The position numbers and the translations under genes are program-made. A stretch of DNA of 32,000 nucleotides, from the NCBI GenBank assembly GCA_023898645.1, contig CP060232.1:150001-182000 (forward strand), given 5' to 3'. The number at the start of each line of letters is the position of its first letter. Position 1 is the stretch's first letter. Shown piece by piece: positions 4,608 to 32,000 of the stretch. Source of the DNA: Candidatus Saccharimonadota bacterium (GTDB lineage Bacteria; Patescibacteriota; Saccharimonadia; Saccharimonadales; Saccharimonadaceae). A model generated the notes under the pieces. It had not been told where the DNA came from and made no database searches. It saw only the letters and a program-made list of their open reading frames with translations.

Positions 4608-4931
4608 TTAGTCTGCTAACTCGTATCCTACGATGGAATTTTGCTGGTCGGTCAGCTCGAATGTTTTACGGATTGTTCCTTGAGTTTCTAGCTGGTGAAG
4701 CGCCTCGTTGGTGACGTAGTAGGGGTATTGAGAAAATGCAACGAGTTCCATCACGCTAAGGCTGGCGTGGCTTAAAGCTTTCACTATGTCCGCCCGGCTG
4801 GCGTCAATTAGTTCATGGTCTTGGTCGACGAAATTATCTTGTGTATATCGATAGCCTTCATTCATAACTTTAGTGTACAGCAAAGCTATGTAGAGTGCTG
4901 CTACCAAGAGCTCAGCGGAGAGCGTTTCCAC
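4608..4931 (-). CDS. small hypothetical protein immediately downstream of tailspike-like gene A
   Basis: 107-aa ORF with a GTG start at 4931 that overlaps the 3' end of the upstream gene by 31 nt. An alternative ATG at 4865 (MNEGYRY...) would remove the overlap. The product is soluble and helical-looking (ADIVKALSHASLSVMELVAFSQYPYYVTNEALHQLETQGTIRK), possibly a winged-helix-like fold. No confident family assignment. Confidence 0.5.
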   Translation of the reverse strand: METLSAELLVAALYIALLYTKVMNEGYRYTQDNFVDQDHELIDASRADIVKALSHASLSVMELVAFSQYPYYVTNEALHQLETQGTIRKTFELTDQQNSIVGYELAD

Positions 4932-7015
4932 GTATCGGTATCAATGCAGGTATAAATATAATCCGTATCATACGCGATTTGTCCCTTTACTCCAGGAGAC
5001 GATGCAGTAGCTGGTGGCGGTACGTTGGTCGTCGATAATCGCGTGAGATGCTGCCCCTTCCATCTACTGAAATTGTTGGTTGTTAGGCGAATAATATCAA
5101 CGCCGCCTGGTTCTGTGGTAAAAATTGGGTCTTGTCCGTCAATCCATTCGAATTCATAGGTAGAGCCAGCAAATGCAGTTGGTACAAAAAACGGAGCTAC
5201 AAAAATCGCATTTCCACCTGAATCAGGCTGTTTAATCCAGATATCAATCGTATTTACGCCAAATGGCGAATCACCACCCAGTATAGCGGAGGAGCCAGGT
5301 ACGGAGGCCATGGATGTTAAGCCGCCTAGGTCAAGACGCATTCTATACGTACCGGGCGTGGGTTCTAGAGCAAAAATTGAACCGTTTTCGATATAGAATA
5401 CGTATGTTGGATTCGGCGAACCAGGCACTCGCTCAAACACTTCAGTGGCTAGGCCCGCCCCACCAGTAAGGTTTGTTCCATCTATTGTCATCATAGGCAG
5501 GTCTTGTGATGCCAGTGCATTTTTAAACTCTACCGAATATCCGTTCTCGTCTTGGATCACCGAATTGATGTACCTTGCTTGCAAATGATAGACTTGCGAG
5601 TTACCTGCGCCTATAGATGGCAGCGCATCAAGCGCAGCTTGCACCTGAGATACCGTGGCATTGTAAGCTAGCGGAGAAGTTGTACTACCGCTATATGTCA
5701 GTGTAAAGGTACCCCCCGTCGCTTCTGTAATATAAATACCCTGGACTTCCCTTGTGGCGTCTAGATATTGGCCGCCCCGTGCTTGTGACACAAGCTGTAA
5801 TGATTGAAACGACTGTATCGTACCGGTTGAACCCAAGGACGGTGAATTTTTGAGCAAACCACCAAATGCAAACGTCCGAGGCGTAGCGTTACCTGGCTGA
5901 AATTGTGACCCAGAATATGGAATTAAGTTTATAGAACCTGATGCTGTTACCTTTGAGTTGATCTCCCAATAATTACCCGATCCTTGCATGAAATCATAGT
6001 GCGCAGTGCCGCCCGCGGTGCCAGACGTCTCCACGCCAATCTGCAATTCACCAGAGAAGCTGGCGGCATCCGCATCGTCTTTGCCTACACGGAACAGTAC
6101 GCCCGTATTGACACCTCCGACCGTACTCAGCTGACAATTACCGGTAAGCGTGACCGATGCGCCATTCATGGAAACCTTAGACCCGGCCGCACCAGAACGT
6201 AACACAAATGCATGTTGGTCGGGCTGAACGACAAACGATAACCAGTACTGCGAATAATCGAACGATCCGCTCGTCACGTTGCCGGTGTTCGACTCAAATA
6301 CAAAACATTCAGTACATTGATTGACGACGCATTCTATATAGGCACGCTCCGACCAGTATGTTTGGTTGTCACCCCAAAGACCGATACTGCCCGACTGGTT
6401 AAAACCAGATATCTCCACATCGGTGATACGCATACGCCAGATGTCGCCGTATCGGATTCCATAAGTGTTGCTGTTGCCGTTGTTCCATCCCAATATCGTC
6501 AAGCCGTGGGCGCCGCCGGCAGGTTTAGTGCCTGTCGTTGCGAACGTCTTGTTGCGAAATTCTAGGAACGCTCCCGCGCCACGATAATCAATAGACGTCA
6601 GGCCAGAACCCTGACCTAGAATCATTTGCTGCTCTTTTATGCATCTACTCGATGCATCGTTGAGACCGACAAATAACTTGTACGTACCTACACCAAAGAC
6701 GACTGCTCCCGCCTCCGATCCCATCGCCTCGTACGCATCAATAAGTGCTTGATTGGAATCATTGACACCCGTCGGATCTGCTCCGTAATCATCGATAAAA
6801 TACTGCTTTGGCATCGTAACGATGCCGGCATTATTGAGCTTCGTCTGCGTGGCGTTGTCGAGCTTGCTTTCGGTAATAGTGCCGTCTGCGATGCTCGTAG
6901 TTGTAACAACGGTATCTTTGAGCGTACCGTCAGGATTATGTGCCTGTGAAAGAAAATCATTGAGGATAGCACCCCAGGTGCCTGAATCACCGCCAGGGAC
7001 GGGGAGGCGAGACAT
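4901..7015 (-). CDS. tailspike-like protein A: shared N-terminal fibre module + pectate-lyase-like beta-helix + conserved C-terminal knob
   Basis: The track ORF is 4901..7084. I place the start at ATG 7015 (MSRLPVPGGDSGTWGAILNDFLSQAHNPDGTLKD) because all paralogues start at M-[AS]-R-L-P and a ggggg RBS lies 9 nt upstream. YFIDDYGADPTGVNDSNQALIDAYEA...VVFGVGTYKL matches the N-terminal signature of pectate_lyase_3/tailspike beta-helix proteins. The protein is collinear with paralogue B along its whole length. The C-terminus is SSPGVKGQIAYDTDYIYTCIDTDTWKRSPLSSW. Confidence 0.85.
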   Translation of the reverse strand: MSRLPVPGGDSGTWGAILNDFLSQAHNPDGTLKDTVVTTTSIADGTITESKLDNATQTKLNNAGIVTMPKQYFIDDYGADPTGVNDSNQALIDAYEAMGSEAGAVVFGVGTYKLFVGLNDASSRCIKEQQMILGQGSGLTSIDYRGAGAFLEFRNKTFATTGTKPAGGAHGLTILGWNNGNSNTYGIRYGDIWRMRITDVEISGFNQSGSIGLWGDNQTYWSERAYIECVVNQCTECFVFESNTGNVTSGSFDYSQYWLSFVVQPDQHAFVLRSGAAGSKVSMNGASVTLTGNCQLSTVGGVNTGVLFRVGKDDADAASFSGELQIGVETSGTAGGTAHYDFMQGSGNYWEINSKVTASGSINLIPYSGSQFQPGNATPRTFAFGGLLKNSPSLGSTGTIQSFQSLQLVSQARGGQYLDATREVQGIYITEATGGTFTLTYSGSTTSPLAYNATVSQVQAALDALPSIGAGNSQVYHLQARYINSVIQDENGYSVEFKNALASQDLPMMTIDGTNLTGGAGLATEVFERVPGSPNPTYVFYIENGSIFALEPTPGTYRMRLDLGGLTSMASVPGSSAILGGDSPFGVNTIDIWIKQPDSGGNAIFVAPFFVPTAFAGSTYEFEWIDGQDPIFTTEPGGVDIIRLTTNNFSRWKGQHLTRLSTTNVPPPATASSPGVKGQIAYDTDYIYTCIDTDTWKRSPLSSW

Positions 7016-7219
7016 CAGACAATACCCCCGATGTTCTCGAGAAAGGTAGCTCCATGCTTTTTTGTATGCATAAAACCTATGCATGAAAATTTATGGAGAC
7101 GTTGATGCAATTGTTGCTCTACAGCCATATACCCCGAAACTCTTTTGAATGTGTGTGTTGTTCGTTTCTATCTATATCATAAGGGTTATGTGGCCCAGAT
7201 ACAAGGAGGAGTTTATCTC

Positions 7220-16361: not shown

Positions 16362-16413
16362 ATCTAAGCGTAACTGTCATAATTGTAGTTACAAAGAGGA
16401 GAAAATAAACAAA

Positions 16414-18621
16414 GTGGCTCGCTTACCGCAACCAGGTGGAGACAATGGCAATTGGGGCCATATTCTTAATGATTATCTGAGTCAAACACTCAAAGCCGAC
16501 GGAACACTGAAAGACGGCATTGTTCCGGAAGCGTCACTAGACGTGACCGTGCAGTCGAAGCTCAATGGCATTACAGGGAAAGTCGATAAATCAATCTTAA
16601 CGACAAAAGGCGACATATACGTCGCCGCTGGCTCTGGGACGCCTGTTCGACTTGGTGTCGGCATGGATGGGCAAGTTCTCACTGCAGATAGTAGTACTGT
16701 TCTCGGGGTGAGTTGGGCGGCAGTAACAACGAGTTCGCAGAAGAGGTATTGTATCGATGATTTCGGCGCAGACCCCACAGGAGTGGTAAATTCAGACGAT
16801 GCTTTAGTTGCTGCGAGGGGGGCGCTTGGAAATGACCCGGGTGTAATTGAGTTTGGTGCCGGTGAGTACAAGTTCTCGAAGGGTTTGAATACGGTTTGGG
16901 GTATGGATCTCAGGCCTAAGCAGGGTGTTCGTGGCCAAGGTAAGGCCCTGACGAAGATTTATTTTCAAGGGCAGGGTGCGGTGTTTGAGTTTCGTAATCC
17001 TGATTGGACGTTCAATAGCGCGGGCAATCCCTACGGCGGTGTCCAAGGAATGTGGATCGATGGTTGGTCGAACACCAACACAGATACGTATGGAATTCGG
17101 TACGGTGACAGTAACGGTATGACGGTTGCAGATGTACATGTAGCCGGCTTTAATCAGGCTGGTTGTGCCGGACTGTACGGCGATAATCAGATTTCTTGGT
17201 CTGAGCGTGCCGACATCGAAATATCAGTGGAACAATGTACTACCTGTTTTTTGTTTGAGTCGAATGCTACTTCTACTCCTGCAGGCTCATCCTCGTTTGA
17301 TTACTCTCGTTATCGTTTGACGTTTGTAGCTGTCGCCAATCAGGACGTTTTTGTATTGCGCACCTCTCCTGGGTGTGTTCGTACTTCAATGAATGGTGTT
17401 CAAATGGAGTTAACAGGTAACTGCAATAACGCTCCTTCGGACGGTACGAACTCAGGGGTGCTGTGGCATGTCGGGTACGATAATGATGACGAAGCCTCGT
17501 TCTCTGGAACACTGCAGATTAATGTAGAGACGTCAGGATATTCCGACGGTGTCTGCCACAAGGATTTTGTCATGGGAGGCGTGGGCCCATGGTGGTTGGT
17601 GAAGTCGCGGGTGAGGGCCACTGGAGCGATTAACCTAATACCGTTTAGCGGAGTAAACTTTGCTGAAGGTGGCGCTACTCCATATAATTTCTCATTCGAC
17701 GGTTTGCTGTATAAGTCACCGTCACTTGGCTCTTCGGGTTATTTTGGTGCTTCTCGGTCTTTGCAGTTGCAGGCTGACTCTAGGGGAAGAATTAGTTTGG
17801 AAAATACTAACGCGGCGCAATTGATTTATGTTACTAGCGCTACGGCCGGTACGTATAGATTAAATTACGGCGGGACATATACCGACACGATACCATATAA
17901 CGCGTCGACTGCTCAGGTGCAGGCTGCACTCGAAGGAATCCCGGCATTGGCGGGGAATGTAACGGTGGTCCATGCTCAGTCTCGGTTCATTAACGGGGTA
18001 TATGCAAATGAGGTTGGTTTTGGCGTTGATTTCATCGGTTCGTTGTCTGAGACTGCGGTACCGACACTTACGGCTGATATGTCAAGTTTGACCGGTGGGG
18101 TCGACATCGTCGTCGCTAATACTGGTAGTCCCAACAAGACGATTAACCTAGAGATAGAGTCAGGCAATATGTTTGTAGTAAACTGGCTTGATCCCGGTAC
18201 TTATCGGATACGAGCACAGACCGGCAACTTAACTGATTCGATGGGTCTAGATAAAGATTCTCCGTTCGGTGCCACCGTGCTTGATGTGTGGATCCAGCAA
18301 CCGACTACTGGAGGGAATGTTATTTTGGAAGGGCCGTACTTCCCACCTGGAACCAATTTCGGCTCTAGCTACAATTTTCAATGGCTGGACGGTATCGATC
18401 CCGTGTTGTCTACCACGCCCAATGCCTATGATGTTATCCGTCTTTCCACATTCAACTTCAACGCGTGGATTGGCCAGCATGTGACACGTAAAGCTATCGC
18501 TTCTGTCCCATCTACTTCTTCTTCTCCTGGTATCGAAGGCCAGATTGCGTATGATGCAGATTATATGTATGTCTGCACGGATACTGATACGTGGAAACGT
18601 TCTCCGATAGGTTCTTGGTAA
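16414..18621 (+). CDS. tailspike-like protein B: shared N-terminal fibre module + pectate-lyase-like beta-helix + conserved C-terminal knob
   Basis: The track ORF 16210..18621 overlaps dinB. I place the start at in-frame GTG 16414 (VARLPQPGGDNGNWGHILNDYLSQTLKADGTLKD), after agaggaga. It contains the phage-fibre-like motif TKGDIYVAAGSGTPVRLGVGMDGQVLTADSSTVLGVSWA, then YCIDDFGADPTGVVNSDDALVAARGA...IEFGAGEYKF (beta-helix signature). The C-terminus is SSPGIEGQIAYDADYMYVCTDTDTWKRSPIGSW. Confidence 0.85.
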   Translation: MARLPQPGGDNGNWGHILNDYLSQTLKADGTLKDGIVPEASLDVTVQSKLNGITGKVDKSILTTKGDIYVAAGSGTPVRLGVGMDGQVLTADSSTVLGVSWAAVTTSSQKRYCIDDFGADPTGVVNSDDALVAARGALGNDPGVIEFGAGEYKFSKGLNTVWGMDLRPKQGVRGQGKALTKIYFQGQGAVFEFRNPDWTFNSAGNPYGGVQGMWIDGWSNTNTDTYGIRYGDSNGMTVADVHVAGFNQAGCAGLYGDNQISWSERADIEISVEQCTTCFLFESNATSTPAGSSSFDYSRYRLTFVAVANQDVFVLRTSPGCVRTSMNGVQMELTGNCNNAPSDGTNSGVLWHVGYDNDDEASFSGTLQINVETSGYSDGVCHKDFVMGGVGPWWLVKSRVRATGAINLIPFSGVNFAEGGATPYNFSFDGLLYKSPSLGSSGYFGASRSLQLQADSRGRISLENTNAAQLIYVTSATAGTYRLNYGGTYTDTIPYNASTAQVQAALEGIPALAGNVTVVHAQSRFINGVYANEVGFGVDFIGSLSETAVPTLTADMSSLTGGVDIVVANTGSPNKTINLEIESGNMFVVNWLDPGTYRIRAQTGNLTDSMGLDKDSPFGATVLDVWIQQPTTGGNVILEGPYFPPGTNFGSSYNFQWLDGIDPVLSTTPNAYDVIRLSTFNFNAWIGQHVTRKAIASVPSTSSSPGIEGQIAYDADYMYVCTDTDTWKRSPIGSW

Positions 18622-18704: not shown

Positions 18705-20648
18705 ATGGCACGATTACCGATTCCTGGGGGCGACAAGGGTAACTGGGGAACAATTCTTAATGACTTTCTCACGCAATCACATAAATCTGACGGGAAATTA
18801 AAGGATGACTCTGTAGGTGCGGCTCAGCTGCAAGATAACGCGGTGACGGCGAGTGCGATTGCGCCGAATGCAATTACCGTTACTGAATTGGCAGGGGATT
18901 CCGTCGACACGACGGTAATTGCGGACGGATCGATTACGAGCGCCAAAATCGCTGACGGTACGATCGTCACAGGTGACATATCTCCGGCTGCTGGTATTGT
19001 AAAATCACAACTCTCATCAAGCGTGCAGGCATCTCTTGATAAAGCCGACACTGCATTGCAGTCAGGAACGTCCGTAAGCAGCATTTCGGGCTTTCCGTTG
19101 AGGTTACCGGGCGAAAAGGCAGTCGCAGTGGCACAAGAAGTCGCAGTTGCAAGGGCAGAAGTGAGCAATCCTGCCGGCCATAAGGTTGTTGTTCTCGCGG
19201 AAACTTGGGGTAAGCCGGGTATATTGAAGCATATTTGGGTGGCGGTAGATAATTCTGCGACGGTCGACGGGTTTTTGGAGCAAGGCGGTGTCATAAGGGT
19301 GTACACCGACGATGACACAACTCCGGCAATCTCAATGTCGCTTGGTGATTTCTTTTGTTTGGCAAATCGATCTGATGTTTTTGAAACACCACGTGTCGGC
19401 AGGTCTAATAGAGGTAGTGGAGGTTCGGCCTATCGCTATCTGCATATGCCATTTCAAAAGTATCTTCGAGTTGAGATTGAAAGTCTTATGGGTACAGACT
19501 CGGCTTTTTATGGCACCGCAGATTATTCATTAGTCGATTCGTTCAGCGATCTTGGAACGCAGCAGCTCGCCTATAGTATAAAAGGTCAACGAGTTGCAAG
19601 CCAGGCAGTGCAAACCCCCATGACGGTGTGTGATTTTGATGGTTCGGGGCAGATTGAATCATTGGTCGTGAGTTTTGCGGGTGCCGACAATGGAGACTGG
19701 GGCGTGCTCGAGGGCGATATTCAGGTATACGTAGATGGCGAGCAATTCCCTATATGGTCATCGTCTGGCATGGAGGATGCCTTTAATGGTGGTTGGTATG
19801 CAACACCAATCGGTGGTTATCCTGCTGGTCGTTCTGGTGATTCCGACCAGTCTGGTGTTAATATGACGATGTATAGATTTTTCCTTGATGATCCGATTTT
19901 CTATTCATCACACCTGAAGGTTGTGGCATGGGCAGGGCAGCCGGGTCAGGGAGGTATTGTTTCTGCGACGGTTGATTTTGCCGGCTATGTGGGCGTGTGG
20001 TCGTCGGCTGCAACAACGCCAAGCTACACAGCGGTTGACGGAATATCGCCACCCGTACTTAACGATCAGATGGACCAGACTGCAGGCGCGCTTGACTCTG
20101 GCACATGGAATCAAGACGGCACTCGCACCCAAATGGTGGCGACTGGTTCGACTTTTACAGTGCCATATGGTAGTGCAAGCGCCGATCAAGATGTACGAGC
20201 AGCGCGTAAAAACGTCTCATTACCTTCGGATTATTGGCTGGAAACAAAAGTTCGCATAACAGACCCTTCTCATGATAATCAAGAGGCGTTGCTTGTTATG
20301 CTCGGAGCCACACCTGATCCATATTTTGGCTCTGCGGTACACATAGGACTTCGACGATACGAGCAATACAACTGGCATATACAGCTTCGTGACGACTTTG
20401 ATACACCATTTGACGTGACGATTGGGGGAGGTTTGGATCTTACGAATATGTGGGCTCGGTTGGCTCTAAAGAAACAGGGTTCGAAAATCACTGGTTATTA
20501 TTCGTTGAATGATACTCCCTCTCCTTGGATTCCTCTTGGTACCTGGGACGCATCTAAAGTCGGAACCGGCTTTGGAATTGCTACATGGACTGCAGGTGCT
20601 GAGTTTGACTATCTAGTTGTTCGTCCTCTCGAAGATGTCACTAGCTAA
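18705..20648 (+). CDS. tail-fibre-like protein C: shared N-terminal module + DUF2961/GH172-like jelly-roll + C-terminal LamG/ConA-like domain
   Basis: The N-terminus is MARLPIPGGDKGNWGTILNDFLTQSHKSDGKLKD, followed by fibre-type repeats (AIAPNAITVTELAGDSVDTTVIADGSITSAKIADGTIV). The middle region carries GILKHIWVAV...VIRVYTDDDTTPAISMSLGDFF, YRYLHMPFQKYLRVEIE, WGVLEGDIQVYVDGEQFPIWSSSGMEDAFNGGW and MYRFFLDDPIFYSSHLKV. These follow the conserved blocks I recall for DUF2961 (PF11175, GH172). The C-terminal ~150 aa (YWLETKVRI...WARLALKKQGSKITGYYS...WIPLG) look LamG-like. Confidence 0.8.
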   Translation: MARLPIPGGDKGNWGTILNDFLTQSHKSDGKLKDDSVGAAQLQDNAVTASAIAPNAITVTELAGDSVDTTVIADGSITSAKIADGTIVTGDISPAAGIVKSQLSSSVQASLDKADTALQSGTSVSSISGFPLRLPGEKAVAVAQEVAVARAEVSNPAGHKVVVLAETWGKPGILKHIWVAVDNSATVDGFLEQGGVIRVYTDDDTTPAISMSLGDFFCLANRSDVFETPRVGRSNRGSGGSAYRYLHMPFQKYLRVEIESLMGTDSAFYGTADYSLVDSFSDLGTQQLAYSIKGQRVASQAVQTPMTVCDFDGSGQIESLVVSFAGADNGDWGVLEGDIQVYVDGEQFPIWSSSGMEDAFNGGWYATPIGGYPAGRSGDSDQSGVNMTMYRFFLDDPIFYSSHLKVVAWAGQPGQGGIVSATVDFAGYVGVWSSAATTPSYTAVDGISPPVLNDQMDQTAGALDSGTWNQDGTRTQMVATGSTFTVPYGSASADQDVRAARKNVSLPSDYWLETKVRITDPSHDNQEALLVMLGATPDPYFGSAVHIGLRRYEQYNWHIQLRDDFDTPFDVTIGGGLDLTNMWARLALKKQGSKITGYYSLNDTPSPWIPLGTWDASKVGTGFGIATWTAGAEFDYLVVRPLEDVTS

Positions 20649-25590: not shown

Positions 25591-28470
25591 ATGGCACGTC
25601 TTCCAACTCCTGGAGGAGATAGTGGTAATTGGGGAACAATACTCAACACCTTTCTCTCTCAGGTTCACGCCTCTGACGGCACACTCAAAACCGACAGTGT
25701 CACCAGCGACGCCATTGCTCCGAATGCCGTAACTTCCAGTGCTCTTGCTCCCAACGCAGTCGATGCCATCACTATAGCTGATGGCTCTATCACCGAAACA
25801 CTCCTCGATACTGCAGTTCAAACCAAACTCAATGCGACTGCTCCAGTCACATCCGTAGCATCCAAGACTGGTGATGTCTCCCTCACCAAGACCGACGTTG
25901 GTCTTGATCAGGTCGACAACACCAGTGATGCGACGAAGAATAGTGCGACGGCGACGCTGACGAATAAGACGTTGACAGGGCCGACGATTGATAGTCCTTC
26001 TCTGATAGGAAATATCACGGGTGCCGCTTCAATTGGCGTGGTCGCCGGCTCTGTATCAGGGCTTTATCTATCTGCTACGACTGGCGTGGGGACACTAGGA
26101 GCTGTACGAGTGCTGTCGTCTACAGGCGCAAATGGCCTAGCCCAGTTGGGTGTAAACGGTAACCAAACAGCTTCTAGTGGTACGCAATTCGGTATCGCTA
26201 TCACTTCAAACATAAACCAGTCGTCGACTGCTGGCTATACAGCTCTCCTTGTGAACCCAACTGAAACAGCAACTGGTTCCGGAACCAAAAGGCTGATCGA
26301 CGCTCAGGTAGGAGGCACATCCAAGTTTGTAGTGGACAACGCCGGGAATGTGACACTAGGAAGCACGACAATCGCCGCTGGCCCCACCCCACTGAACGTT
26401 AGTTTAGGGGGTTCTTACGGCAATAGCACTGCGGGCAGTAGCAATAACATGAAGCTGGCGCTATACAATGATAGCAGCGTCAAACTTGGATTTGGCGTTT
26501 CGCTAAATACACTTGAATATCAAGTCAATTCGCTTTCCTCACACAAGTTCTACGTCGGCGGTACTGAGCGTTTAGCTATCTCGTCTTCTAGCATGACCGT
26601 GGGTGGTGTACCTGTAGTCACAACATCAGACACTCAGACGTTAACGAATAAGACGCTGACAAGCCCGACATTTACTGGAACAATCACCGGGGTGGCAGAC
26701 GCGACTACTACTGGGTCTGGCAAGGTTGTTACCGGCGGTGTGTTAAGTACCCAGCCAGATGCCAACTCTACATCCATGCTGGCAATTCCAGGATTGTACA
26801 ATGACCTTTCATATTGTCTGATGCGTGCTGGTGCTTCCATGACCATTACCAAAAATGGCGGTGCGACGGTAGCGGGAGTCGATTACCTTTATCCCGATGC
26901 CATGTTTGCACCACAGGGCATGACGTATCTCAATGGTTTGGTAAACGGTGACGTGTTTGTCATAGAGGTTACCGCTCCGAGCGGCTTGACCATGGACTAT
27001 GTCAATACATACGGGATTTCATGCTCTAACAGCTTCCGCGCAAGCAACGTGACCATCGAGGTGTATTTCAATGGAGCGTGGACTTCCATCCATTCGGTGA
27101 CTAATCAGACTGCTGGAGATGTATGGAAGTTCTATTCTAGCGGTGCATACTCAGTGACCAAGATTCGGTACACACTGACTAACTTCCCTTATAATCAGTG
27201 CCGCATTTTCTCCTTGTACGCAATAACCGGCACAACTGCGTTGGCGTCGGGTCCATTGCTACCACGGACCGGTGGTGCCTTGTATGGCACTAATGCTGCG
27301 CCACCAACACTGACAGCTACCGGTGCCGATGCTAGCATCAATCTCAATCTTGTCCCGAAAGGATCAGGAACTGTCCAAGCAAATGGTGTCGAGGTCGCGA
27401 CTATTTCTGGCACGCAAACACTCACAAATAAGACATTGACAAGCCCGACGCTGACTACGCCGAGGACGGCCTCTATCATGGACACGAACGGCAATTGGGC
27501 ATTCATGATAAATGCCACCACCAACGCTATCAATTATTTGCAGGTCATCAACAGTGCGACTGGAAGCGCTGTTCGCATAAATGCAGCAGGTAGCGACACG
27601 AACATTAGCATGAATTTGGTACCTAAGGGCACTGGAGTGATTCAGGCTAATGGCGCTGAGGTGGCGACCACCACCGGCACACAGACACTGTCGAACAAGA
27701 CCTTGGTGAGTCCTACGATTACTGGCACCCCCACTGGAGTTGCCAGGCAAGCTCAGGTCGATGTATTCACACCTCTGGGCGCGAACTATGTCACCGATAA
27801 ACAGGTGTCCTCAAACGTAGTAACTCTTACTACACTCACAGCACACGGCTATCAGGTTGGCGACAAGGTTTGGATCAACGGCATTGATTCCGCGATCGAA
27901 TTAAACCTAGTTACCTCGGTGACTATCACTTCGATTCCGACAGCCACTACATTTACTTTTGCTAGAAGTGTCGCTGACATAGCCCCTGCAACCGTGCGGC
28001 CCTACGGAAACGTGTTTCAACTTCAGACATGGACGAAACCGTCCGGTGCTGTTTCGGTGAAGTTCACATTATGCGGTCCAGGTGGCGGTGGTGGATCTGG
28101 TGCGAGGCGAGCTACCACGTCAAACCGTACCGGCGGTGGCGGTGGCGGTGGCGGGGGTTGGCAAGAAGTTACTGTTCCTGCGTCGGACGTGCCCGACACT
28201 GCGATGTTCGTTAGCGTCCCCGCCGGGGCTTACGGCGGTCTGCCCGTCACTACGGATGACACGGACGGAATGGTCGGCGGGAGAAGCTATCACTCGACTC
28301 GCGTCAGCAACCTTGAAATTTCGTATCTGTCCACGCTTAACTTTAACGCCAATCCGGGTTACGGCGGGCTGGGTGGCAGCACCGGAACAACCGTCGCTGG
28401 AGGCGGAGGCGCCGTCAATACTCAGTTTGCGGTGCCGGTGGAGCGGGCAACACTAGCAACGGGAGCATAG
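25591..28470 (+). CDS. giant tail-fibre-like protein D, main reading frame (shared N-module, fibre repeats, start of glycine-rich domain); interrupted near its 3' end
   Basis: The N-terminus is MARLPTPGGDSGNWGTILNTFLSQVHASDGTLKTD. It contains VGLDQVDNTSDATKNSATATLTNKTL (a phage-fibre-type motif) and a recurring TQTL[TS]NKTL[TV]SPT motif, including an 89-aa-period duplicate (27337-27450 and 27604-27717). The glycine-rich domain starts at FTLCGPGGGGGSG...GGGGGGGGGWQEVTV. The frame ends at TAG 28468-28470, in the middle of that domain. Confidence 0.85.
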   Translation: MARLPTPGGDSGNWGTILNTFLSQVHASDGTLKTDSVTSDAIAPNAVTSSALAPNAVDAITIADGSITETLLDTAVQTKLNATAPVTSVASKTGDVSLTKTDVGLDQVDNTSDATKNSATATLTNKTLTGPTIDSPSLIGNITGAASIGVVAGSVSGLYLSATTGVGTLGAVRVLSSTGANGLAQLGVNGNQTASSGTQFGIAITSNINQSSTAGYTALLVNPTETATGSGTKRLIDAQVGGTSKFVVDNAGNVTLGSTTIAAGPTPLNVSLGGSYGNSTAGSSNNMKLALYNDSSVKLGFGVSLNTLEYQVNSLSSHKFYVGGTERLAISSSSMTVGGVPVVTTSDTQTLTNKTLTSPTFTGTITGVADATTTGSGKVVTGGVLSTQPDANSTSMLAIPGLYNDLSYCLMRAGASMTITKNGGATVAGVDYLYPDAMFAPQGMTYLNGLVNGDVFVIEVTAPSGLTMDYVNTYGISCSNSFRASNVTIEVYFNGAWTSIHSVTNQTAGDVWKFYSSGAYSVTKIRYTLTNFPYNQCRIFSLYAITGTTALASGPLLPRTGGALYGTNAAPPTLTATGADASINLNLVPKGSGTVQANGVEVATISGTQTLTNKTLTSPTLTTPRTASIMDTNGNWAFMINATTNAINYLQVINSATGSAVRINAAGSDTNISMNLVPKGTGVIQANGAEVATTTGTQTLSNKTLVSPTITGTPTGVARQAQVDVFTPLGANYVTDKQVSSNVVTLTTLTAHGYQVGDKVWINGIDSAIELNLVTSVTITSIPTATTFTFARSVADIAPATVRPYGNVFQLQTWTKPSGAVSVKFTLCGPGGGGGSGARRATTSNRTGGGGGGGGGWQEVTVPASDVPDTAMFVSVPAGAYGGLPVTTDDTDGMVGGRSYHSTRVSNLEISYLSTLNFNANPGYGGLGGSTGTTVAGGGGAVNTQFAVPVERATLATGA

Positions 28471-28850
28471 GCGCGAACGCGACCTACGTCGGTGGTGGCG
28501 GTGGTGGTGGCGGCGGAGCGGCGGCGAGCTCTACGTCATCGGCGGCTGGAGGCGGCGCAGCGTCAATCTTCGCTGTACGCAGCCTTTCTGGTACCTTCGT
28601 CTCTCCAGGAAACGGCACCTTGACAATGGACGCCACTACCAACACTTCCTACTACCCGGTCATACCTGGACTGCCGGGGATTGGTGGTGGCGGCGGAGCG
28701 TACAAGACCGCGACCAATGGCGGCAACGGAGGTGACGCAACCAACTACAACGCTGGCGGCGGTGGTGGCGGGGCGTCTGACAACGGCTACCAGAGCGGTG
28801 CGGGCGGCAAAGGCGCAGACGGTTGCGTAGTCATTACTACCTATTTTTAA
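28431..28850 (+). pseudogene. C-terminal continuation of fibre gene D in the -1 frame (rest of the glycine-rich domain)
   Basis: The frame with codons starting at positions divisible by 3 is open from 28347 to TAA 28848-28850. It has no ATG or GTG start before TTG 28620. From about 28431 it reads GAGGAGNTSNGSIGANATYVGGGGGGGGGAAASS...GIGGGGGAYKTATNGGNGGDATNYNAGGGGGGASDNGYQSGAGGKGADGCVVITTYF. This continues the Gly-rich domain and ends with the typical G-x-x-G-x-V-[VI]-I-x-x-[YF] terminus. One missing base, or a -1 shift, near 28418-28432 would fuse it to 25591..28470. Confidence 0.7.
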
Positions 28851-28984
28851 AGACAAGCTCATAAGCAAACTTTTTAATGTAAAAACTACGCTTTTTGACG
28901 TTTTAAGTGATTGACACAGTCTTTATTACTTCATATACTATAGCCAACCGTGGGCGCCAATATATAACTGAAAAAGGAGGAAAT

Positions 28985-29140
28985 ATGGATATTTCAAGTA
29001 TTACTGACGCTAAAGAACTAAAAGCACTTGCATACGACACACTACAGGCAGTTGAAGTACAGCAAAACAATCTACGCCTTATTCAGCAGCGTATCGCTGA
29101 AATCGAGCAGCAGGCACAAGAGACAGAAAAGAAGAAGTAG
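28985..29140 (+). CDS. small coiled-coil protein (51 aa) between fibre genes D and E
   Basis: A strong RBS aaggagg lies 5 nt before ATG 28985; the track ORF 28907..29140 is an upstream extension. The product is MDISSITDAKELKALAYDTLQAVEVQQNNLRLIQQRIAEIEQQAQETEKKK, which is heptad-like and charged. A terminator follows. Confidence 0.6.
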   Translation: MDISSITDAKELKALAYDTLQAVEVQQNNLRLIQQRIAEIEQQAQETEKKK

Positions 29141-29158
29141 TCACAATTGATATCGAAT

Positions 29159-29197
29159 AGACGCGTATAGTCAGCGATTATACGCGTCTTTCATTTG
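29159..29197 (+). terminator. rho-independent terminator
   Basis: agacgcgtata-gtcagcgat-tatacgcgtct forms an 11-bp stem (29159-29189) and is followed by ttcatttg. It is positionally equivalent to the terminator at 25476. Confidence 0.75.
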
Positions 29198-29223
29198 AAC
29201 TCACCTCAATCTTCCCGTATACT
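29195..29223 (+). promoter_or_regulatory. sigma70-like promoter of fibre gene E (TTGAAC-17 nt-TATACT)
   Basis: The -35 is ttgaac at 29195-29200 and the -10 is tatact at 29218-29223, separated by a 17-nt spacer. It is homologous to the block upstream of gene D. Confidence 0.5.
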
Positions 29224-29284
29224 AAACCTGTAAACTATAAGCACTTTACAAGTGAGGGTACTAATAGGAGCAATATAGAAATTT

Positions 29285-30127
29285 ATGGCACGTCTTCCAA
29301 CTCCTGGAGGAGACAGTGGCAATTGGGGATCAATCCTCAACGACTATCTTTCTCAGGTCCACGCCCCTGACGGCACACTCAAAACAGACAGTGTCACCAG
29401 CGACGCCATTGCTCCTAATGCCATTGATTCTATAGCCATCGCCGATGGCTCTATCACCGAAACGTTGCTTGATACGGCGGTTCAAACCAAACTTAATACC
29501 GTCGCACCCGTCACTAGCGTTGCCGCTAAGACCGGTGACGTCACGCTCATCAAGTCCGACGTCGGTCTAGATCAAGTCGACAACACAAGTGACGCCACTA
29601 AAAACAGCGCTACGGCAACCTTGCAGAACAAGACTCTCGATAACAGTAATAGTCTTACGCTCAAAGACGCTAATCTTACCATTCAAGACGACAGCGATAC
29701 TTCAAAGCAAGCAAAGCTTCAGCTCTCCGGTATTACCACGGGCACAACGCGCACGTATACACTCCCTGACGCCTCAGGTACGGTGGCGCTGACGAGCCTC
29801 ATCCCTCCTATTCGTTTTTCTGCTCCGACTGCAGTCGTAGGCGTCACGCCGACTGACTATGCGTATGGTCCACGGACGCTAACTGGCGCACATATGCGCG
29901 TGGCGAGCGCTCCGGTCGGGTCTGATCTTGTCGCCGAGGTTCAACATTGGGATGGTTACTCTTGGTCGACACTATGCACACTCACCGTATCTGATGGGTC
30001 GGTCACAGAAGCTACCTCCAGCCTTTCTCAGCAGCAGTCAGCCGGGAACATGGTACGCCTTAATGTGACATCGGTCGGGGGCAATTCCGCTGCAACTGGA
30101 GTTGCCGTAGACGTAGAGGTAGATTAA
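29285..30127 (+). CDS. short tail-fibre-like protein E (shared N-module + small beta-rich C-terminal domain)
   Basis: The N-terminus is MARLPTPGGDSGNWGSILNDYLSQVHAPDGTLKTD. The first ~115 aa are near-identical to gene D apart from an 8-aa indel. It contains VGLDQVDNTSDATKNSATATLQNKTL and TRTYTLPDASGTVAL (a phage-fibre-type motif). Its stop TAA (30125-30127) overlaps the next ATG (TAATG). Confidence 0.85.
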   Translation: MARLPTPGGDSGNWGSILNDYLSQVHAPDGTLKTDSVTSDAIAPNAIDSIAIADGSITETLLDTAVQTKLNTVAPVTSVAAKTGDVTLIKSDVGLDQVDNTSDATKNSATATLQNKTLDNSNSLTLKDANLTIQDDSDTSKQAKLQLSGITTGTTRTYTLPDASGTVALTSLIPPIRFSAPTAVVGVTPTDYAYGPRTLTGAHMRVASAPVGSDLVAEVQHWDGYSWSTLCTLTVSDGSVTEATSSLSQQQSAGNMVRLNVTSVGGNSAATGVAVDVEVD

Positions 30128-32000
30128 TGGCTAAGGCTAGCACGCTTAGTGAGACTTTTGATTCCTATAATACCCTGGTGTGGTATCGGTCGAACGCAAC
30201 GAATGTCGCCTACACAGGTGGTCAGCTTAAGCTTACACCAACAACGTCCTACCATTATCTCGATACTTTTACTGGGTATGACTTGACCGAATCACACTAT
30301 CAAGTTGAGTTTGTTCAAAACTGCAACGCGGGAAACCACGACTCGATAACGACTAATTTTACGGTTGTAGTAGACGGTAGTAATAGCTTTGAGTTTGAGA
30401 TTGGCGGCGGTCCGACTGGCTCGGTGGTTATGCGCGAGCAAGTGGCTGGAGTTAATTCTGAAACAACGACGACATATGATGCTACCAATTTTCGATGGCT
30501 ACGTTTGCGAGAGTCGGGAGGTACGATTTATTGGGAGACATCGCCAGATGGGTCGACATGGACTATCCAGCGGTCAAAAACCTCATCGCTAACACTGGCA
30601 TCGACAAATGTGATGTTGTCATGCGGCCGTTGGACATCGGAAACATCGCCAGGTAACTCTTATTTTGACAACCTAAATCCCGGCTCGCCTACGGCAACTC
30701 TGACTGACGATTTCAGTACAGAGGATACCATCAAGTGGACAGGATATGAAGGCAACGTCGCTTCCGTTGTCGATGGTCGCCTAGCGTTATCGGGCGCTAC
30801 ATCGGACTACTACCCGCCTTTAGAATCGGTGAGTACCTATGTGTTTACGGGCTCCTACGTTGCGTGTCAGTTTGTTGAAAACTTCCCCGAGGGAAATGGT
30901 AGTTACACATTGGAATTTTATGTAGGTAGCGATACGAACAACCGAATTGAATTTCAGATTAATGGCGGTAGTCTTGGTATTTCAATGAAAGAAAAGGTGG
31001 CAGGAGTAGTGTCTTCTAGTGATTTGATATACAACCCGCTGCGACACAAATGGTTACGCATGCGCGAGTCAGGCGGGACGGTATATTGGGAAACCTCGAT
31101 AGACAGCGCGACATGGGTCGAACGTTGGTCGAAAGCCACTACATTGAATCTCAATAACGTCACCATCGGCTTTAACGGTGGATATTACGGTACTGAAACA
31201 GGCAGTCCTGTCGCCTTGTTTGATAATTTCAATCTTATTGCCGGGACAAACATTGGCTACGATGAACCGCTACCTATCTCGCTGCTTACCGATGAATTTA
31301 CTACCCTTGATGGTTCAAAGTGGTATGCGCCGCCTGAATATAGTATTAGTGCAGTGGACAGTGTGTTATCTATACCTGTCGTGCCGAATGACTATCATTA
31401 CATAAATACCAATGACACTTGGAATTTAATTGGTGATTCCTTGTTGCTTGAATTGGTTCAGAACGCCAACCGTGGATCATCTCAGTATGGCACCATCACT
31501 ACTGAAATAGCCGTCATTGTAGATGCCACGAATCGGGTTCAATTCATGATTGGCGGTGGCAATGGATCGGAGATTAAGTTGCGCGAGGTCGTTGATGGCA
31601 CGCCGTCAGACACGACGATTATTTATGACCAAACTTTACATCGTTGGTTTCGAATTCGAGAAAATAGCGGAGCTGTTTACTGGGAGACTTCCAAGGACGG
31701 TGCAGTATGGAACATCCAACGGTCAAAATCCACCACGCTTGATTTGTCTAGTGTGAAAGTGCAGTTTACGGTGGGTTCGTATGAGAACGAAGTCGACCCA
31801 GGTACTGTACTGATTGACAATGTTAATCTTCCTAACACTGCTTTGCAAGCGCAGATAGGATGGTACGTTAATTCGCTTCCGCTAGGGGCGACTGATGGCG
31901 GTACGATACAGCCGAAAAATTTCTTTCAGCAAGCCGATTGGCTATGGAAACCAATTCCAGATAATCCGGTGCTCGATCCAATGTCGGCACTTTGGGGTGC
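30127..32000 (+). CDS. large protein F with three tandem ConA/LamG-like jelly-roll repeats; 3'-truncated by the window end
   Basis: Absent from the ORF track because there is no stop in the window. I translated frame 1 from ATG 30127 through 32000 (624 codons) and found no stop. The product is MAKASTLSETFDSYNTLVWYRSN... with three repeats. Each contains F-[RHK]-W-[LF]-R-[LMI]-R-E-[SN]-[GS]-G-x-[IV]-Y-W-E-T-S-x-D-[GS]-x-x-W and ends in [FI]-D-N-[LFV]-N-L. It is start/stop-coupled to gene E. Confidence 0.8.
   Translation, partial: MAKASTLSETFDSYNTLVWYRSNATNVAYTGGQLKLTPTTSYHYLDTFTGYDLTESHYQVEFVQNCNAGNHDSITTNFTVVVDGSNSFEFEIGGGPTGSVVMREQVAGVNSETTTTYDATNFRWLRLRESGGTIYWETSPDGSTWTIQRSKTSSLTLASTNVMLSCGRWTSETSPGNSYFDNLNPGSPTATLTDDFSTEDTIKWTGYEGNVASVVDGRLALSGATSDYYPPLESVSTYVFTGSYVACQFVENFPEGNGSYTLEFYVGSDTNNRIEFQINGGSLGISMKEKVAGVVSSSDLIYNPLRHKWLRMRESGGTVYWETSIDSATWVERWSKATTLNLNNVTIGFNGGYYGTETGSPVALFDNFNLIAGTNIGYDEPLPISLLTDEFTTLDGSKWYAPPEYSISAVDSVLSIPVVPNDYHYINTNDTWNLIGDSLLLELVQNANRGSSQYGTITTEIAVIVDATNRVQFMIGGGNGSEIKLREVVDGTPSDTTIIYDQTLHRWFRIRENSGAVYWETSKDGAVWNIQRSKSTTLDLSSVKVQFTVGSYENEVDPGTVLIDNVNLPNTALQAQIGWYVNSLPLGATDGGTIQPKNFFQQADWLWKPIPDNPVLDPMSALWG
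30139..31830 (+). repeat. three tandem protein-domain repeats (about 180-185 aa each) inside gene F
   Basis: Repeat 1 is 30139-30678 (STLSETF...SYFDNLN). Repeat 2 is 30694-31236 (ATLTDDF...ALFDNFNL). Repeat 3 is 31276-31830 (ISLLTDEF...VLIDNVNL). The repeats are divergent at the nucleotide level but have a conserved motif order at the protein level. Confidence 0.8.

What the first reader, a model, noticed from the sequence alone, without database searches (positions are those of the whole stretch)
30127..32000. Unlisted open reading frame running off the window: triple ConA/LamG-like repeat protein coupled to fibre E
Frame 1 is open from ATG 30127 to the last base of the window (624 codons by my manual translation). 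It is missing from the supplied track, which appears to list only ORFs terminated in the window.

The ATG overlaps the TAA of gene E (gatTAATGgct), which suggests translational coupling. The product may associate with the short fibre E, which has the anchor module while F has none.

The protein is three tandem domains of 180-185 aa. Each has the motif order L[ST][ED].F ... [EL][FL]VQN.N ... [FV][EQ]F.IGGG ... [MKL][RK]E.V.G ... [RHK]W[LF]R[LMI]RE..G.[IV]YWETS.D[GS]..W ... [FI]DN.NL. This reads like concanavalin-A-like lectin/glucanase jelly-rolls. A different domain begins at about 31831.

Three tandem lectin-like domains would give multivalent glycan binding.
Basis: seen in the sequence. Interest (0 to 1): 0.7.

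Follow-up and report, generated by a model that had tools for sequence, protein, structure and literature searches.

The report
Phage tail-fibre cassette in Saccharibacteria chromosome
The open frame is a real gene for a protein with three lectin-like domains; it and its upstream partner are shared between the tail genes of phages that infect mycobacteria-like bacteria and the chromosomes of ultrasmall Saccharibacteria, which are known to live on actinobacteria, so it is a candidate host-recognition device for these epibionts.

Summary
Frame 1 is open from ATG 30127 to the window end. It is the first 624 codons of an 895-aa protein (USN96735.1). The protein has three ~185-aa repeats (37-39% identical, E 1e-36 to 1e-44). 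One repeat was modelled (pLDDT 97) and has a concanavalin-A-like beta-sandwich fold.

The window is not a phage. It is a Saccharimonadales (CPR/TM7) chromosome with the order TilS-FtsH-MurJ-fibres-LepA.

All five non-CPR architectural relatives whose context I read (42-47% identity) lie in tail modules of mycobacteriophage-like siphophages or prophages.

The last ~108 aa of upstream gene E are 60-70% identical to the gene directly upstream of the homologue in all ten loci examined (five CPR, five phage). The stop and start abut or overlap in every one. E plus target is therefore a conserved two-gene cassette.

CPR copies of E carry a lineage-specific N-terminal module. In this genome that module is shared by at least five other large proteins, one of them a GH172-type enzyme.

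The C-terminal ~320-aa domain is cut by the window. It belongs to a family of about 9,000 clusters with no Pfam model and no PDB fold match.

Best reading: a phage-type, glycan-binding and probably glycan-cleaving distal fibre protein used against an actinobacterial host envelope. Localisation and ligand are untested.

The parts
30127..32000 (+). 5' 624 codons of an 895-aa gene (H6797_00855, USN96735.1): 3x ConA-like module plus an uncharacterised C-terminal domain. The gene ends about 813 nt beyond the window and lepA follows.
30127..30693 (+). Repeat 1 (aa 1-189), a ConA-like beta-sandwich. It starts at the initiator Met, with no signal peptide.
   Evidence: HMM envelope; AF2 pLDDT 97.1; Foldseek against the PDB; hydropathy
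30682..31248 (+). Repeat 2 (aa 186-374), the most divergent repeat between CPR orthologues (pN 0.26).
31267..31842 (+). Repeat 3 (aa 381-572).
31843..32000 (+). First 52 aa (linker plus start) of the ~323-aa C-terminal domain (aa 573-895). The family has no Pfam or NCBIfam model and its fold has no PDB match. Its fold relatives are phage minor tail proteins.
30116..30129 (+). Coupling junction: GAGG (30116-30119), 7-nt spacer, then TAATG, where the stop of E and the start of the target share one A.
   Evidence: Abutting or overlapping junctions occur in L007, L008, L009, L011, L012 and L013, and 4-nt gaps in L079, L080 and L081.
29285..30127 (+). Gene E (280 aa, H6797_00850), the upstream partner or adaptor fibre.
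29285..29638 (+). E aa 1-118: a CPR-type N-terminal module (MARLPTPGGDSGNWG.ILN.YLSQ...). It is 81% identical to the N-terminus of the 959-aa protein. Residues 61-148 resemble the 'DNTSD' tail-fibre motif of actinophages. Residues 1-60 have no phage match.
29798..30124 (+). E aa 172-280: the conserved partner domain. It is 60-70% identical to the C-terminus of the gene immediately upstream of every homologue, in phages and in CPR.
29159..29223 (+). A 14-bp-stem hairpin (29159-29189) followed by a promoter-like TTGAAC-17-TATACT (29195-29223), about 60 nt before the ATG of E. This is a possible start of the E-target transcription unit. The evidence is weak because site counts are not above shuffles.
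25591..28470 (+). A 959-aa paralogous fibre: the same N-terminal module, phage minor-tail-like middle segments and a Gly_rich_2 C-terminus.
18705..20648 (+). A 647-aa paralogue: the same N-terminal module fused to DUF2961 (GH172, the exo-alpha-D-arabinofuranosidase family).
   Evidence: PMC10115798
16210..18621 (+). An 803-aa paralogue. The N-terminal module begins at aa 69, so the true start is probably internal. It has LtfC-like and tail-like segments and is 46% identical to the 727-aa protein.
4901..7084 (-). A 727-aa paralogue. The N-terminal module begins at aa 24.

Best explanation
Genes E (29285-30127) and the target (30127 onward) form a two-gene fibre cassette of actinophage tail type that sits stably in a Saccharimonadales (TM7) chromosome.

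E is the adaptor. Its N-terminal module is shared with at least five other large proteins of this genome and probably fixes them all to one structure or export route. Its conserved C-terminal ~108-aa domain probably docks the target protein.

The target is the distal working part. Three ConA-like beta-sandwich modules would bind envelope glycans multivalently. The conserved C-terminal ~320-aa domain carries invariant Asp and Arg and near-invariant His and Glu residues. It would act on the same surface, most likely as a glycan- or wall-cleaving enzyme.

The likely target is the envelope of the epibiont's actinobacterial host, probably a mycolic-acid-containing one. That is the surface the homologous phage proteins must recognise.

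Shown: gene, repeats, fold, homology, cassette conservation, synteny, purifying selection. Inferred: E-target docking, surface location, ligand, catalysis, host.
For: Gene and fold:
- The ORF is open and the repeats are real.
- The ConA-like fold is modelled at pLDDT 97 and matches GH16, lectin and CBM structures.

Phage relatives:
- The repeats match phrog_14065 (E 4e-51). The C-terminal domain matches phrog_17388 'minor tail protein'.
- The C-terminal model matches the Gordonia phage Guillaume minor tail protein and other Caudovirales tail proteins (E 2e-19 to 6e-18, TM about 0.67).
- Relatives with the same repeat-plus-C-terminal architecture lie in siphophage tail modules. P0004 sits in the order TMP, Sipho_Gp37, DUF7257, P0004, LtfC, amidase endolysin, holin, integrase. 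P0003, P0010 and P0011 have similar contexts, and P0012 is in a Mycolicibacterium rhodesiae prophage.

Cassette:
- The partner domain of E is 60-70% identical in all ten loci and the junctions abut or overlap.

Chromosomal status:
- L079 has GH38...TilS-FtsH-MurJ-[158 aa]-[1xConA+Cterm]-LepA, the same locus as the window.
- The window holds no capsid, portal, terminase or lysis genes.
- GC of the target is 46.7% against 48.8% for the window and 55-64% for the phage loci.
- Purifying selection: pN 0.10-0.26 against saturated pS 0.70-0.81.

Organism:
- LepA is 84-89% identical to Saccharimonadales/Saccharibacteria proteins.

Extracellular role elsewhere:
- Actinobacterial standalone C-terminal-domain proteins carry Tat or Sec leaders.
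- The domain is found fused to CBM60, F5/8-C, fn3, VCBS, a beta-helix and a beta-propeller.

Context from the literature:
- The paralogue with the same N-module carries DUF2961/GH172. The M. amalyticus homologue of that family is a trimeric exo-D-arabinofuranosidase active on mycobacterial AG/LAM (PMC10115798).
- Mycobacteriophage baseplate CBMs bind LAM/AM and alpha-glucan (PMC13033339).
Against: - Neither the target, E, nor any paralogue has a signal peptide or a TM helix. How they would reach the surface is unknown. The related MycGH172 is predicted not to be secreted (PMC10115798).
- No binding, activity, localisation or expression data exist.
- The host of this MAG is unknown.
- The catalytic role of the C-terminal domain rests only on conserved polar residues and domain partners. 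No known enzyme fold matched.
- The promoter and terminator calls are not above chance.
- The tree is NJ only, and P0005-P0009 were assumed, not shown, to be phage proteins.
Confidence: 0.5

Rival explanations
1. Cytoplasmic (or non-displayed) glycan-processing enzyme. The protein stays inside the CPR cell and trims imported host-wall oligosaccharides. The ConA modules act as substrate-binding modules, and the fibre-like partner has no role in surface display.
For: - No signal peptide or TM helix in the target, E or the paralogues.
- A cytoplasm-type GH38 mannosidase lies in the same window.
- The authors of PMC10115798 predict MycGH172 is not secreted and propose cytoplasmic cleavage of imported arabinan fragments.
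Against: - The homologues occupy phage tail modules, which are virion-exposed.
- The cellular actinobacterial C-terminal-domain proteins have Tat or Sec leaders.
- Triple CBM-like modules and a conserved fibre adaptor suit polymeric surfaces, not small imported sugars.
- Phage tail proteins also lack signal peptides, so the absence of a leader may simply be inherited.
Confidence: 0.2
2. Decaying remnant of a prophage, either one that infected the CPR cell itself or a mis-integrated actinophage. On this reading the genes have no present cellular function.
For: - The closest architectural relatives are phage tail genes.
- Several tail-fibre-like genes cluster in the window.
- There is a possible frameshift at the 3' end of the neighbouring 959-aa gene.
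Against: - The window has no capsid, portal, terminase, integrase or lysis genes.
- The cassette lies between MurJ and LepA in two genomes whose LepA proteins are 85% identical.
- It recurs at two other chromosomal sites in other Saccharimonadales.
- The full-length ORF is intact and under strong purifying selection.
- Its GC is adapted to the CPR genome.
Confidence: 0.07
3. Competition or interference device. The CPR cell releases phage-type receptor-binding proteins that occupy or destroy host receptors used by actinophages or by rival epibionts. This would protect its host, and so itself, from superinfection.
For: - The cassette is shared with phages of Mycobacteriales hosts.
- The window's allele groups with the phage alleles and not with the 1-repeat CPR clade (100/100 against 0/100 NJ bootstraps).
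- A paper cited within PMC11880426 reports, by its title, that TM7x modulates host susceptibility to phage. I saw only the reference and did not read the paper.
Against: - There is no direct evidence.
- It needs the same unexplained export step.
- It does not explain the shared N-terminal anchor module on enzymes such as the GH172 paralogue.
Confidence: 0.08
4. Component of a phage-tail-like particle (tailocin or gene-transfer-agent type) encoded elsewhere in the genome. The fibres would attach to it through the shared N-terminal module.
For: - Six proteins share one N-terminal module.
- None has a signal peptide.
- Fibre N-termini in phages dock to baseplates (established knowledge).
Against: - No sheath, tube, baseplate or capsid genes appear in the 32-kb window or in the 9 kb downstream.
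- The rest of the 1.13-Mb genome could not be inspected here.
Confidence: 0.05

Closest known systems
Minor tail proteins of actinobacteriophages: PHROG 14065 and 17388, the uncultured mycolata siphophage protein P0004 (935 aa), and the Mycolicibacterium rhodesiae JS60 prophage protein MycrhDRAFT_6890 (P0012)
   Same: - Same architecture: 2-3 ConA-like repeats plus the same C-terminal domain.
- 42-47% identity over the full length.
- Same upstream partner domain and the same stop/start junction.
   Different: - The window gene is chromosomal in a CPR bacterium, between murJ and lepA, with no phage genes nearby.
- Its partner has a CPR-specific N-terminal module instead of the phage collagen-like or 'MTLKNDW' N-termini.
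- None of these phage proteins has been characterised experimentally.
Carbohydrate-binding baseplate accessory proteins of siphophages: mycobacteriophage Douge BppU-CBM/CFP, and Lactobacillus phage J-1 Dit CBM2 (PDB 5LY8)
   Same: - Beta-sandwich CBM-type modules displayed on tail-tip proteins to bind host wall glycans.
- 5LY8 is among the fold matches (E 5e-5).
- The Douge modules bind LAM/AM and alpha-glucan on arrays (PMC13033339).
   Different: - No detectable sequence similarity.
- Here three tandem modules precede an extra ~320-aa domain of unknown fold.
- Binding has not been tested.
Concanavalin-A-like lectin/glucanase superfamily: GH16 glucanases/XETs, the GH43 C-terminal sandwich, legume and L-type lectins, DUF1349
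   Same: - Same jelly-roll beta-sandwich fold (TM 0.6-0.7).
- Weak DUF1349 profile matches in several family members.
   Different: - 10-15% identity.
- Below the DUF1349 gathering score.
- The GH16 ExDxxE catalytic motif is absent in 0/61 repeats.
- The repeat has its own signature: DDF...W...W.R.RE.GGT.YWETS.DG..W...DN.N.
MycGH172 (GII36_05205) of Candidatus Mycosynbacter amalyticus
   Same: - A Saccharibacterial protein that attacks the mycolata envelope (exo-D-arabinofuranosidase on AG/LAM).
- It is trimeric and has no signal peptide (PMC10115798).
- The window's 647-aa paralogue has the same DUF2961 domain and a similar size, and carries the N-terminal module found on E.
   Different: - It relates to a paralogue, not to the target.
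- Orthology to the 647-aa protein could not be tested because no sequence was at hand.
- The target has no GH172 domain.
Type IV pili of Saccharibacteria, the only host-binding device so far shown experimentally
   Same: The proposed role is the same: recognition of and attachment to the actinobacterial host surface (PMC11880426, PMC12206443).
   Different: The machinery is unrelated. Pili have dedicated secretion and assembly genes. The cassette here is of phage-tail origin and its export route is unknown.

Membership tests
Concanavalin-A-like lectin/glucanase fold (superfamily level) | Two-sheet jelly-roll beta-sandwich of about 180-250 aa that superposes on known members | tested here: met
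   The AF2 model has pLDDT 97.1 and pTM 0.92, with 14 strands. Foldseek found 145 PDB hits at E<=1e-3. The top hits are GH16, GH43-C, lectins and DUF1349-type proteins, with TM 0.6-0.7.
Pfam DUF1349 (PF07081) / other ConA-clan Pfam families | Score at or above the family gathering threshold | tested here: not met
   DUF1349 scores 17.8-19.3 bits against a cutoff of 32.4 for the target. The best score in the family is 27.0, for P0017. No Laminin_G or Glyco_hydro_16 hit falls on the repeats.
GH16 glycoside hydrolases | Catalytic E-[ILV]-D-[IVAF]-[VILMF]?-E motif on the concave sheet | tested here: not met
   0 of 61 aligned repeats contain the motif. The conserved residues are D9, F11, W19, R126, R128, S139, W145 and N184.
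Lectin / carbohydrate-binding module (functional class) | Demonstrated binding of a defined glycan | not testable with these tools
   The only support is fold analogy and the domain company it keeps.
Actinophage minor tail protein family (PHROG 14065 + 17388) | Significant profile match | tested here: met
   phrog_14065 matches at E 3.7e-51 with three stretches. phrog_17388 matches at E 3e-9 on aa 674-837.
Actinophage minor tail protein family (PHROG 14065 + 17388) | Gene located in a phage tail module (between tape measure/Tal and lysis genes) | tested here: not met
   This holds for the homologues P0003, P0004, P0010, P0011 and P0012. The window gene lies between murJ and lepA with no phage genes nearby. 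It is a homologue, not a phage gene.
Translationally coupled gene pair | Overlapping or abutting stop/start with a ribosome-binding site inside the upstream gene | tested here: met
   TAATG overlap with GAGG 7 nt upstream. The junction type is conserved in ten loci.
Translationally coupled gene pair | Co-transcription and dependence of downstream translation on upstream translation | not testable with these tools
   No terminator-like site lies between the genes. No expression data are available.
Prophage / cryptic phage region | Capsid, portal, terminase, integrase or lysis genes adjacent | tested here: not met
   Pfam and PHROG scans of all window ORFs of 80 aa or more found none. The housekeeping synteny is conserved in L079.
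Secreted or surface protein by the classical route | N-terminal Sec/Tat signal peptide, lipobox, TM anchor or LPXTG | tested here: not met
   The maximum 19-residue hydropathy is 1.16 for the target and 1.32 for E, against 2.7-2.9 for the FtsH and MurJ controls. The protein begins directly with the repeat and ends ...NSWDGS.

The most novel reading that the evidence does not exclude
Saccharibacteria and the phages that infect the same actinobacterial hosts draw on a common, exchangeable pool of receptor-binding cassettes. The CPR cell mounts these phage-type fibres on a lineage-specific N-terminal module that serves as anchor or leaderless export tag. The cargoes include the triple-lectin protein, a GH172-type enzyme and glycine-rich fibres. 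[quoted passage not shown] On this reading, allele swaps at the murJ-lepA locus (a 1-repeat CPR type replaced by a 3-repeat phage type) would be host-range switches of the epibiont.
Probability: 0.3. Interest if true: 0.85.

Novelty: new variant of a known kind. Interest (0 to 1): 0.66.

Why it matters
How CPR/Saccharibacteria choose and hold their hosts is largely unknown. In the papers read here, type IV pili were the only host-binding device with experimental support.

This locus offers concrete, clonable candidates:
- a conserved adaptor-plus-lectin cassette that the epibionts share with phages of Mycobacteriales hosts;
- a fibre family with a common N-terminal module that also carries a GH172-type enzyme.

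If these proteins are displayed, they could explain host specificity. They could also let host range be predicted from genomes, by matching CPR alleles to phage alleles. And they would reveal a leaderless display route.

Separately, the C-terminal domain defines a large family (about 9,000 clusters at 50% identity). It has a confident predicted fold, no PDB relative and no annotation. It is found in actinophage tail proteins and in actinobacterial proteins with Tat or Sec leaders, which makes it a good target for enzyme discovery against actinobacterial and mycobacterial envelopes.

Tried and rejected
- Sequence searches of the PDB with the protein, the repeat profile and the C-terminal profile found nothing meaningful. 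The best hits were RET CLD1 at E 0.014 and indolepyruvate decarboxylase at E 0.24.
- The Pfam RET_CLD1 hit scores 26.6 bits on the truncated protein and 24.8 on the full protein, against a cutoff of 26.4. No stretch passes on its own. It rests on the short W.RI.E..G.LY..S.D..W strand motif, so I treated it as chance or analogy.
- NCBIfam gave no hit for the target, E or the paralogues.
- The GH16 catalytic motif is absent.
- Foldseek of the C-terminal model against the PDB gave no match: best E 1.4, TM about 0.1.
- tblastn of the E partner domain against 50,697 deposited phage genomes gave no match, although it is 60-70% identical in metagenomic phage contigs. The phages that carry the cassette are apparently uncultured.
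- dN/dS could not be computed for most segments because synonymous sites are saturated, so pN and pS are reported instead.
- The idea that the 959-aa gene is frameshifted was not settled. The alternate frame has no Pfam hit.
- Model coordinates are not exposed, so I could not test whether the conserved Asp, His and Glu residues of the C-terminal domain cluster in space.
- Literature searches found no report of phage-type tail fibre or minor tail genes in CPR genomes.
Full report
**1. The observation**

Frame 1 from ATG 30127 to base 32000 translates into 624 codons without a stop. The other five frames of the same stretch carry 23-59 stops. The ORF is missing from the ORF list only because that list omits ORFs that run off the window.

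The start overlaps the stop of ORF 29285-30127 ('E', 280 aa) as TAATG, and a GAGG lies 7 nt upstream.

Cutting the product at aa 186 and 378 gives three segments. They align over ~184 residues at 37-39% identity, with E 7e-36 to 7e-44. An HMM built from them places the units at aa 1-189, 186-374 and 381-572.

**2. What the window is**

The neighbours are cellular housekeeping genes: GH38 mannosidase, a DsbD-thioredoxin fusion, a DinB-type polymerase, TilS, FtsH and MurJ. The exact full-length protein is public: 895 aa, USN96735.1, H6797_00855, on a 1.13 Mb contig labelled 'Candidatus Nomurabacteria bacterium'. lepA follows 58 nt downstream.

LepA of this genome is 84-89% identical to proteins named Candidatus Saccharimonadales, Saccharibacteria or Patescibacteria group. 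The organism is therefore a Saccharimonadales (TM7) member, and the deposited label is doubtful.

No capsid, portal, terminase, integrase or lysis gene occurs in the window.

**3. The repeats**

Pfam gives only sub-threshold matches. DUF1349, a ConA-clan family, scores 17.8-19.3 bits against a cutoff of 32.4. A marginal RET_CLD1 match rests on one strand motif. Sequence searches of the PDB found nothing.

The repeat HMM finds 71 instances in 40 homologous proteins, in one to three copies each. The partners include Baseplate_J, GH16, subtilase, Gly_rich_2 and Spherulin4, so this is a mobile module.

With an alignment of 61 instances, AlphaFold2 models repeat 1 at pLDDT 97.1 and pTM 0.92 as a 14-strand all-beta domain. 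Foldseek against the PDB returns 145 hits at E<=1e-3. They are led by:
- GH16 glucanases and xyloglucan endotransglycosylases;
- the C-terminal sandwich of GH43 xylosidases;
- legume and L-type lectins;
- DUF1349-type proteins;
- the CBM2 of the phage J-1 Dit.

TM scores are 0.6-0.7 at 10-15% identity. The fold assignment to the concanavalin-A-like superfamily is therefore supported.

The GH16 catalytic motif is absent from all 61 repeats. The module is best read as a binding module, not a hydrolase. Glycan binding itself is an inference.

**4. The C-terminal domain**

Residues 573-895 lie mostly beyond the window. They have no Pfam or NCBIfam match and no sequence relative in the PDB.

A profile search of 1.84 billion representatives finds 8,967 clusters at E<=1e-3 and 1,198 at E<=1e-30. 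Members come in two forms:
- standalone ~300-aa actinobacterial proteins, several with Tat or Sec leaders;
- fusions to CBM60, F5/8-type C, fn3, VCBS, a right-handed beta-helix, a beta-propeller, or the ConA-like repeats.

D696, D783 and R799 are invariant. D689, E754, H762, D803 and E818 are nearly so.

The AlphaFold2 model is confident (pLDDT 89.3, pTM 0.87), yet Foldseek finds no PDB match: best E 1.4, TM about 0.1. In the viral structure library the same model matches a 985-aa protein, the Gordonia phage Guillaume minor tail protein, and uncultured Caudovirales proteins, one of them with a parallel beta-helix (E 2e-19 to 1e-7, TM 0.5-0.67). PHROG 17388 ('minor tail protein') matches aa 674-837.

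I read this as an extracellular, probably enzymatic domain of unknown chemistry. That step is inferred.

**5. Relatives and their contexts**

Every non-CPR relative with the same repeat-plus-C-terminal architecture whose context I could read lies in an actinophage.
- P0004 (935 aa, 45-47% identical, three repeats plus the C-terminal domain) sits in this order: tape measure, Sipho_Gp37, DUF7257, P0004, LtfC, amidase endolysin, holin, integrase.
- P0003, P0010 and P0011 sit among LtfC, Phage_gene29, GP88/Gp89, PE-PPE-like, portal and capsid genes.
- P0012 is in a prophage of Mycolicibacterium rhodesiae JS60.

These loci have 55-64% GC.

In deposited phage genomes, only the repeat module is found. 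It occurs in 42 Mycobacterium, Streptomyces and Gordonia phages, inside or next to minor tail genes.

P0002 (71% identical) lies in another CPR-type chromosome next to sortase, DnaJ and TrbL genes.

**6. The link to gene E**

The last ~108 residues of E are 60-70% identical (E 1e-42 to 1e-48) to the C-terminus of the gene immediately upstream of the homologue in four phage contigs. The same holds for an uncalled ORF in the M. rhodesiae prophage and for four other CPR loci. In every case the two genes abut or overlap, or are 4 nt apart.

The N-terminal parts differ by lineage.
- Phage partners begin with collagen-like or 'MTLKNDW...' segments.
- All five CPR partners begin M[AS]RLPxPGxDxGxWGxILNxYL. 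The shortest (158 aa, L079) is just this module plus the conserved domain.

In the window the same module heads the 959-aa, 647-aa, 803-aa and 727-aa proteins. It also heads the >1250-aa gene beyond lepA. Residues 61-148 of E resemble a widespread tail-fibre motif found in 316 phage records, mostly actinophages. Residues 1-60 have no phage match.

E plus target is therefore a conserved two-gene cassette. In CPR, the adaptor's attachment end has been exchanged for a lineage-specific module.

**7. Resident gene or remnant**

L079 comes from a Saccharimonadales genome whose LepA is 85% identical. It has GH38...TilS-FtsH-MurJ-[158 aa]-[1xConA+Cterm, 503 aa]-LepA, which is the same locus as the window. 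L080 shares the sortase/DnaJ neighbourhood of L007. A Saccharimonadaceae MAG carries the cassette at a third site.

The target's GC (46.7%) matches the window (48.8%). Against its CPR orthologue, synonymous sites are saturated (pS 0.70-0.81) while pN is 0.10 in the C-terminal domain and 0.26 in repeat 2. dN/dS is 0.06 where it can be computed. The gene is functional and long resident.

In an NJ tree of the C-terminal domain, the 1-repeat ~504-aa proteins form a clade in 91/100 bootstraps. That clade includes the three verified CPR copies. P0001 and P0002 group with a subset of the phage proteins in 100/100 replicates and never with the 1-repeat CPR clade. The closest C-terminal domain is phage P0011, at 60%. 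This suggests more than one exchange between phages and CPR, and an allele replacement at the murJ-lepA locus. The method is crude, and P0005-P0009 were not verified as phage proteins.

**8. Mechanism proposed**

E acts as the adaptor. Its N-module provides a common anchor or export tag, and its C-domain docks the target. The target is the distal unit: three ConA-like modules for multivalent glycan binding, and a C-terminal domain that acts on the bound surface.

The likely target surface is the envelope of an actinobacterial, probably mycolic-acid-containing, host. The supporting context from the papers I read:
- Cultivated Saccharibacteria grow as epibionts on Actinobacteria (PMC10633639).
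- Candidatus Mycosynbacter amalyticus from wastewater lyses Gordonia, and its attachment depends on the mycolic-acid layer (PMC11880426).
- Mycobacteriophage baseplate CBMs bind LAM/arabinomannan and alpha-glucan (PMC13033339).
- DUF2961 is GH172. The M. amalyticus member is a trimeric exo-D-arabinofuranosidase on AG/LAM of about 67 kDa per monomer (PMC10115798). The 647-aa paralogue in the window carries DUF2961 (E 5e-34) behind the same N-module.

The main gap is export. None of these proteins has a signal peptide or a TM segment, and MycGH172 is predicted not to be secreted. A cytoplasmic role is therefore the chief rival. The other rivals are a prophage remnant, a receptor-blocking role and a tailocin-like particle.

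**9. Novelty**

The fold of the repeats and the general idea of CBM-bearing phage tail proteins are known. The paper on D-arabinan enzymes already notes that phages and M. amalyticus share arabinan-degrading enzymes.

I found no report of three things:
- the conserved adaptor-plus-lectin cassette shared between actinophage tails and Saccharimonadales chromosomes;
- the swap of the adaptor's N-terminal module for one common to a whole CPR fibre family;
- the large C-terminal family that has no structural relative.

I class this as a new variant of a known kind. Interest is moderately high because it yields direct experiments on CPR host recognition.

Noticed in passing
window 4901-7084 (-), 16210-18621, 18705-20648, 25591-28470, 29285-30127; L001:5676-9431: Six proteins share one N-terminal module, M[AS]RLPxPGGDxGxWGxILNxFLxQxH. 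None has a signal peptide. The cargoes differ: Gly_rich_2, DUF2961/GH172, LtfC-like and pectate-lyase-like segments, and the partner domain of E. This looks like a fibre family with a common anchor or export tag.
   Followed up: partly
window 18705-20648: The 647-aa protein is the N-terminal fibre module plus DUF2961 (GH172). Its size and domain match the experimentally characterised trimeric exo-D-arabinofuranosidase MycGH172 of Ca. Mycosynbacter amalyticus (PMC10115798). Orthology could not be tested.
   Followed up: partly
window 28401-28847 (+, another frame than 25591-28470): A 149-aa open, glycine-rich stretch continues the glycine-rich C-terminus of the 959-aa ORF in a different frame. 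Pfam Gly_rich_2 matched only profile positions 6-114 of 226 in the ORF as called. There may be a frameshift (an assembly error or a real one) near 28415-28440. The alternate frame alone has no Pfam hit.
   Followed up: partly
window 28911-29189: A compact mini-gene: TTGACA-17-TATACT (28911-28939), AAAGGAGG (28973-28980), ATG 28985, a 51-aa charged, helical-looking peptide (MDISSITDAKELKALAYDTLQAVEVQQNNLRLIQQRIAEIEQQAQETEKKK), TAG at 29138-29140, and a 14-bp-stem hairpin (29159-29189). The deposited locus tags imply three annotated features between the 959-aa gene and E.
   Followed up: partly
window 16210-18621 and 4901-7084 (-): The listed ORF starts are probably too far upstream. The shared N-terminal module begins at aa 69 in the first ORF and at aa 24 in the second. 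The two proteins are 46% identical over their full length.
   Followed up: no
whole window / L001:3480-5330: The deposited organism name (Candidatus Nomurabacteria) conflicts with LepA, whose closest named relatives (84-89% identical) are Saccharimonadales/Saccharibacteria.
   Followed up: partly
L079:8518-10512 compared with window 25591-32000: At the syntenic murJ-lepA locus, a related genome has only a 158-aa adaptor and a 1-repeat (503-aa) protein. The window has an extra 959-aa fibre, a longer adaptor and a 3-repeat, phage-type allele. The locus appears to be a hotspot for fibre turnover.
   Followed up: partly
L007:14086-14414 and L007/L080 neighbourhoods: The second chromosomal site of the cassette lies near sortase and a TrbL_3 (type IV secretion) gene. 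Any relevance to export of the leaderless fibres is unknown.
   Followed up: no
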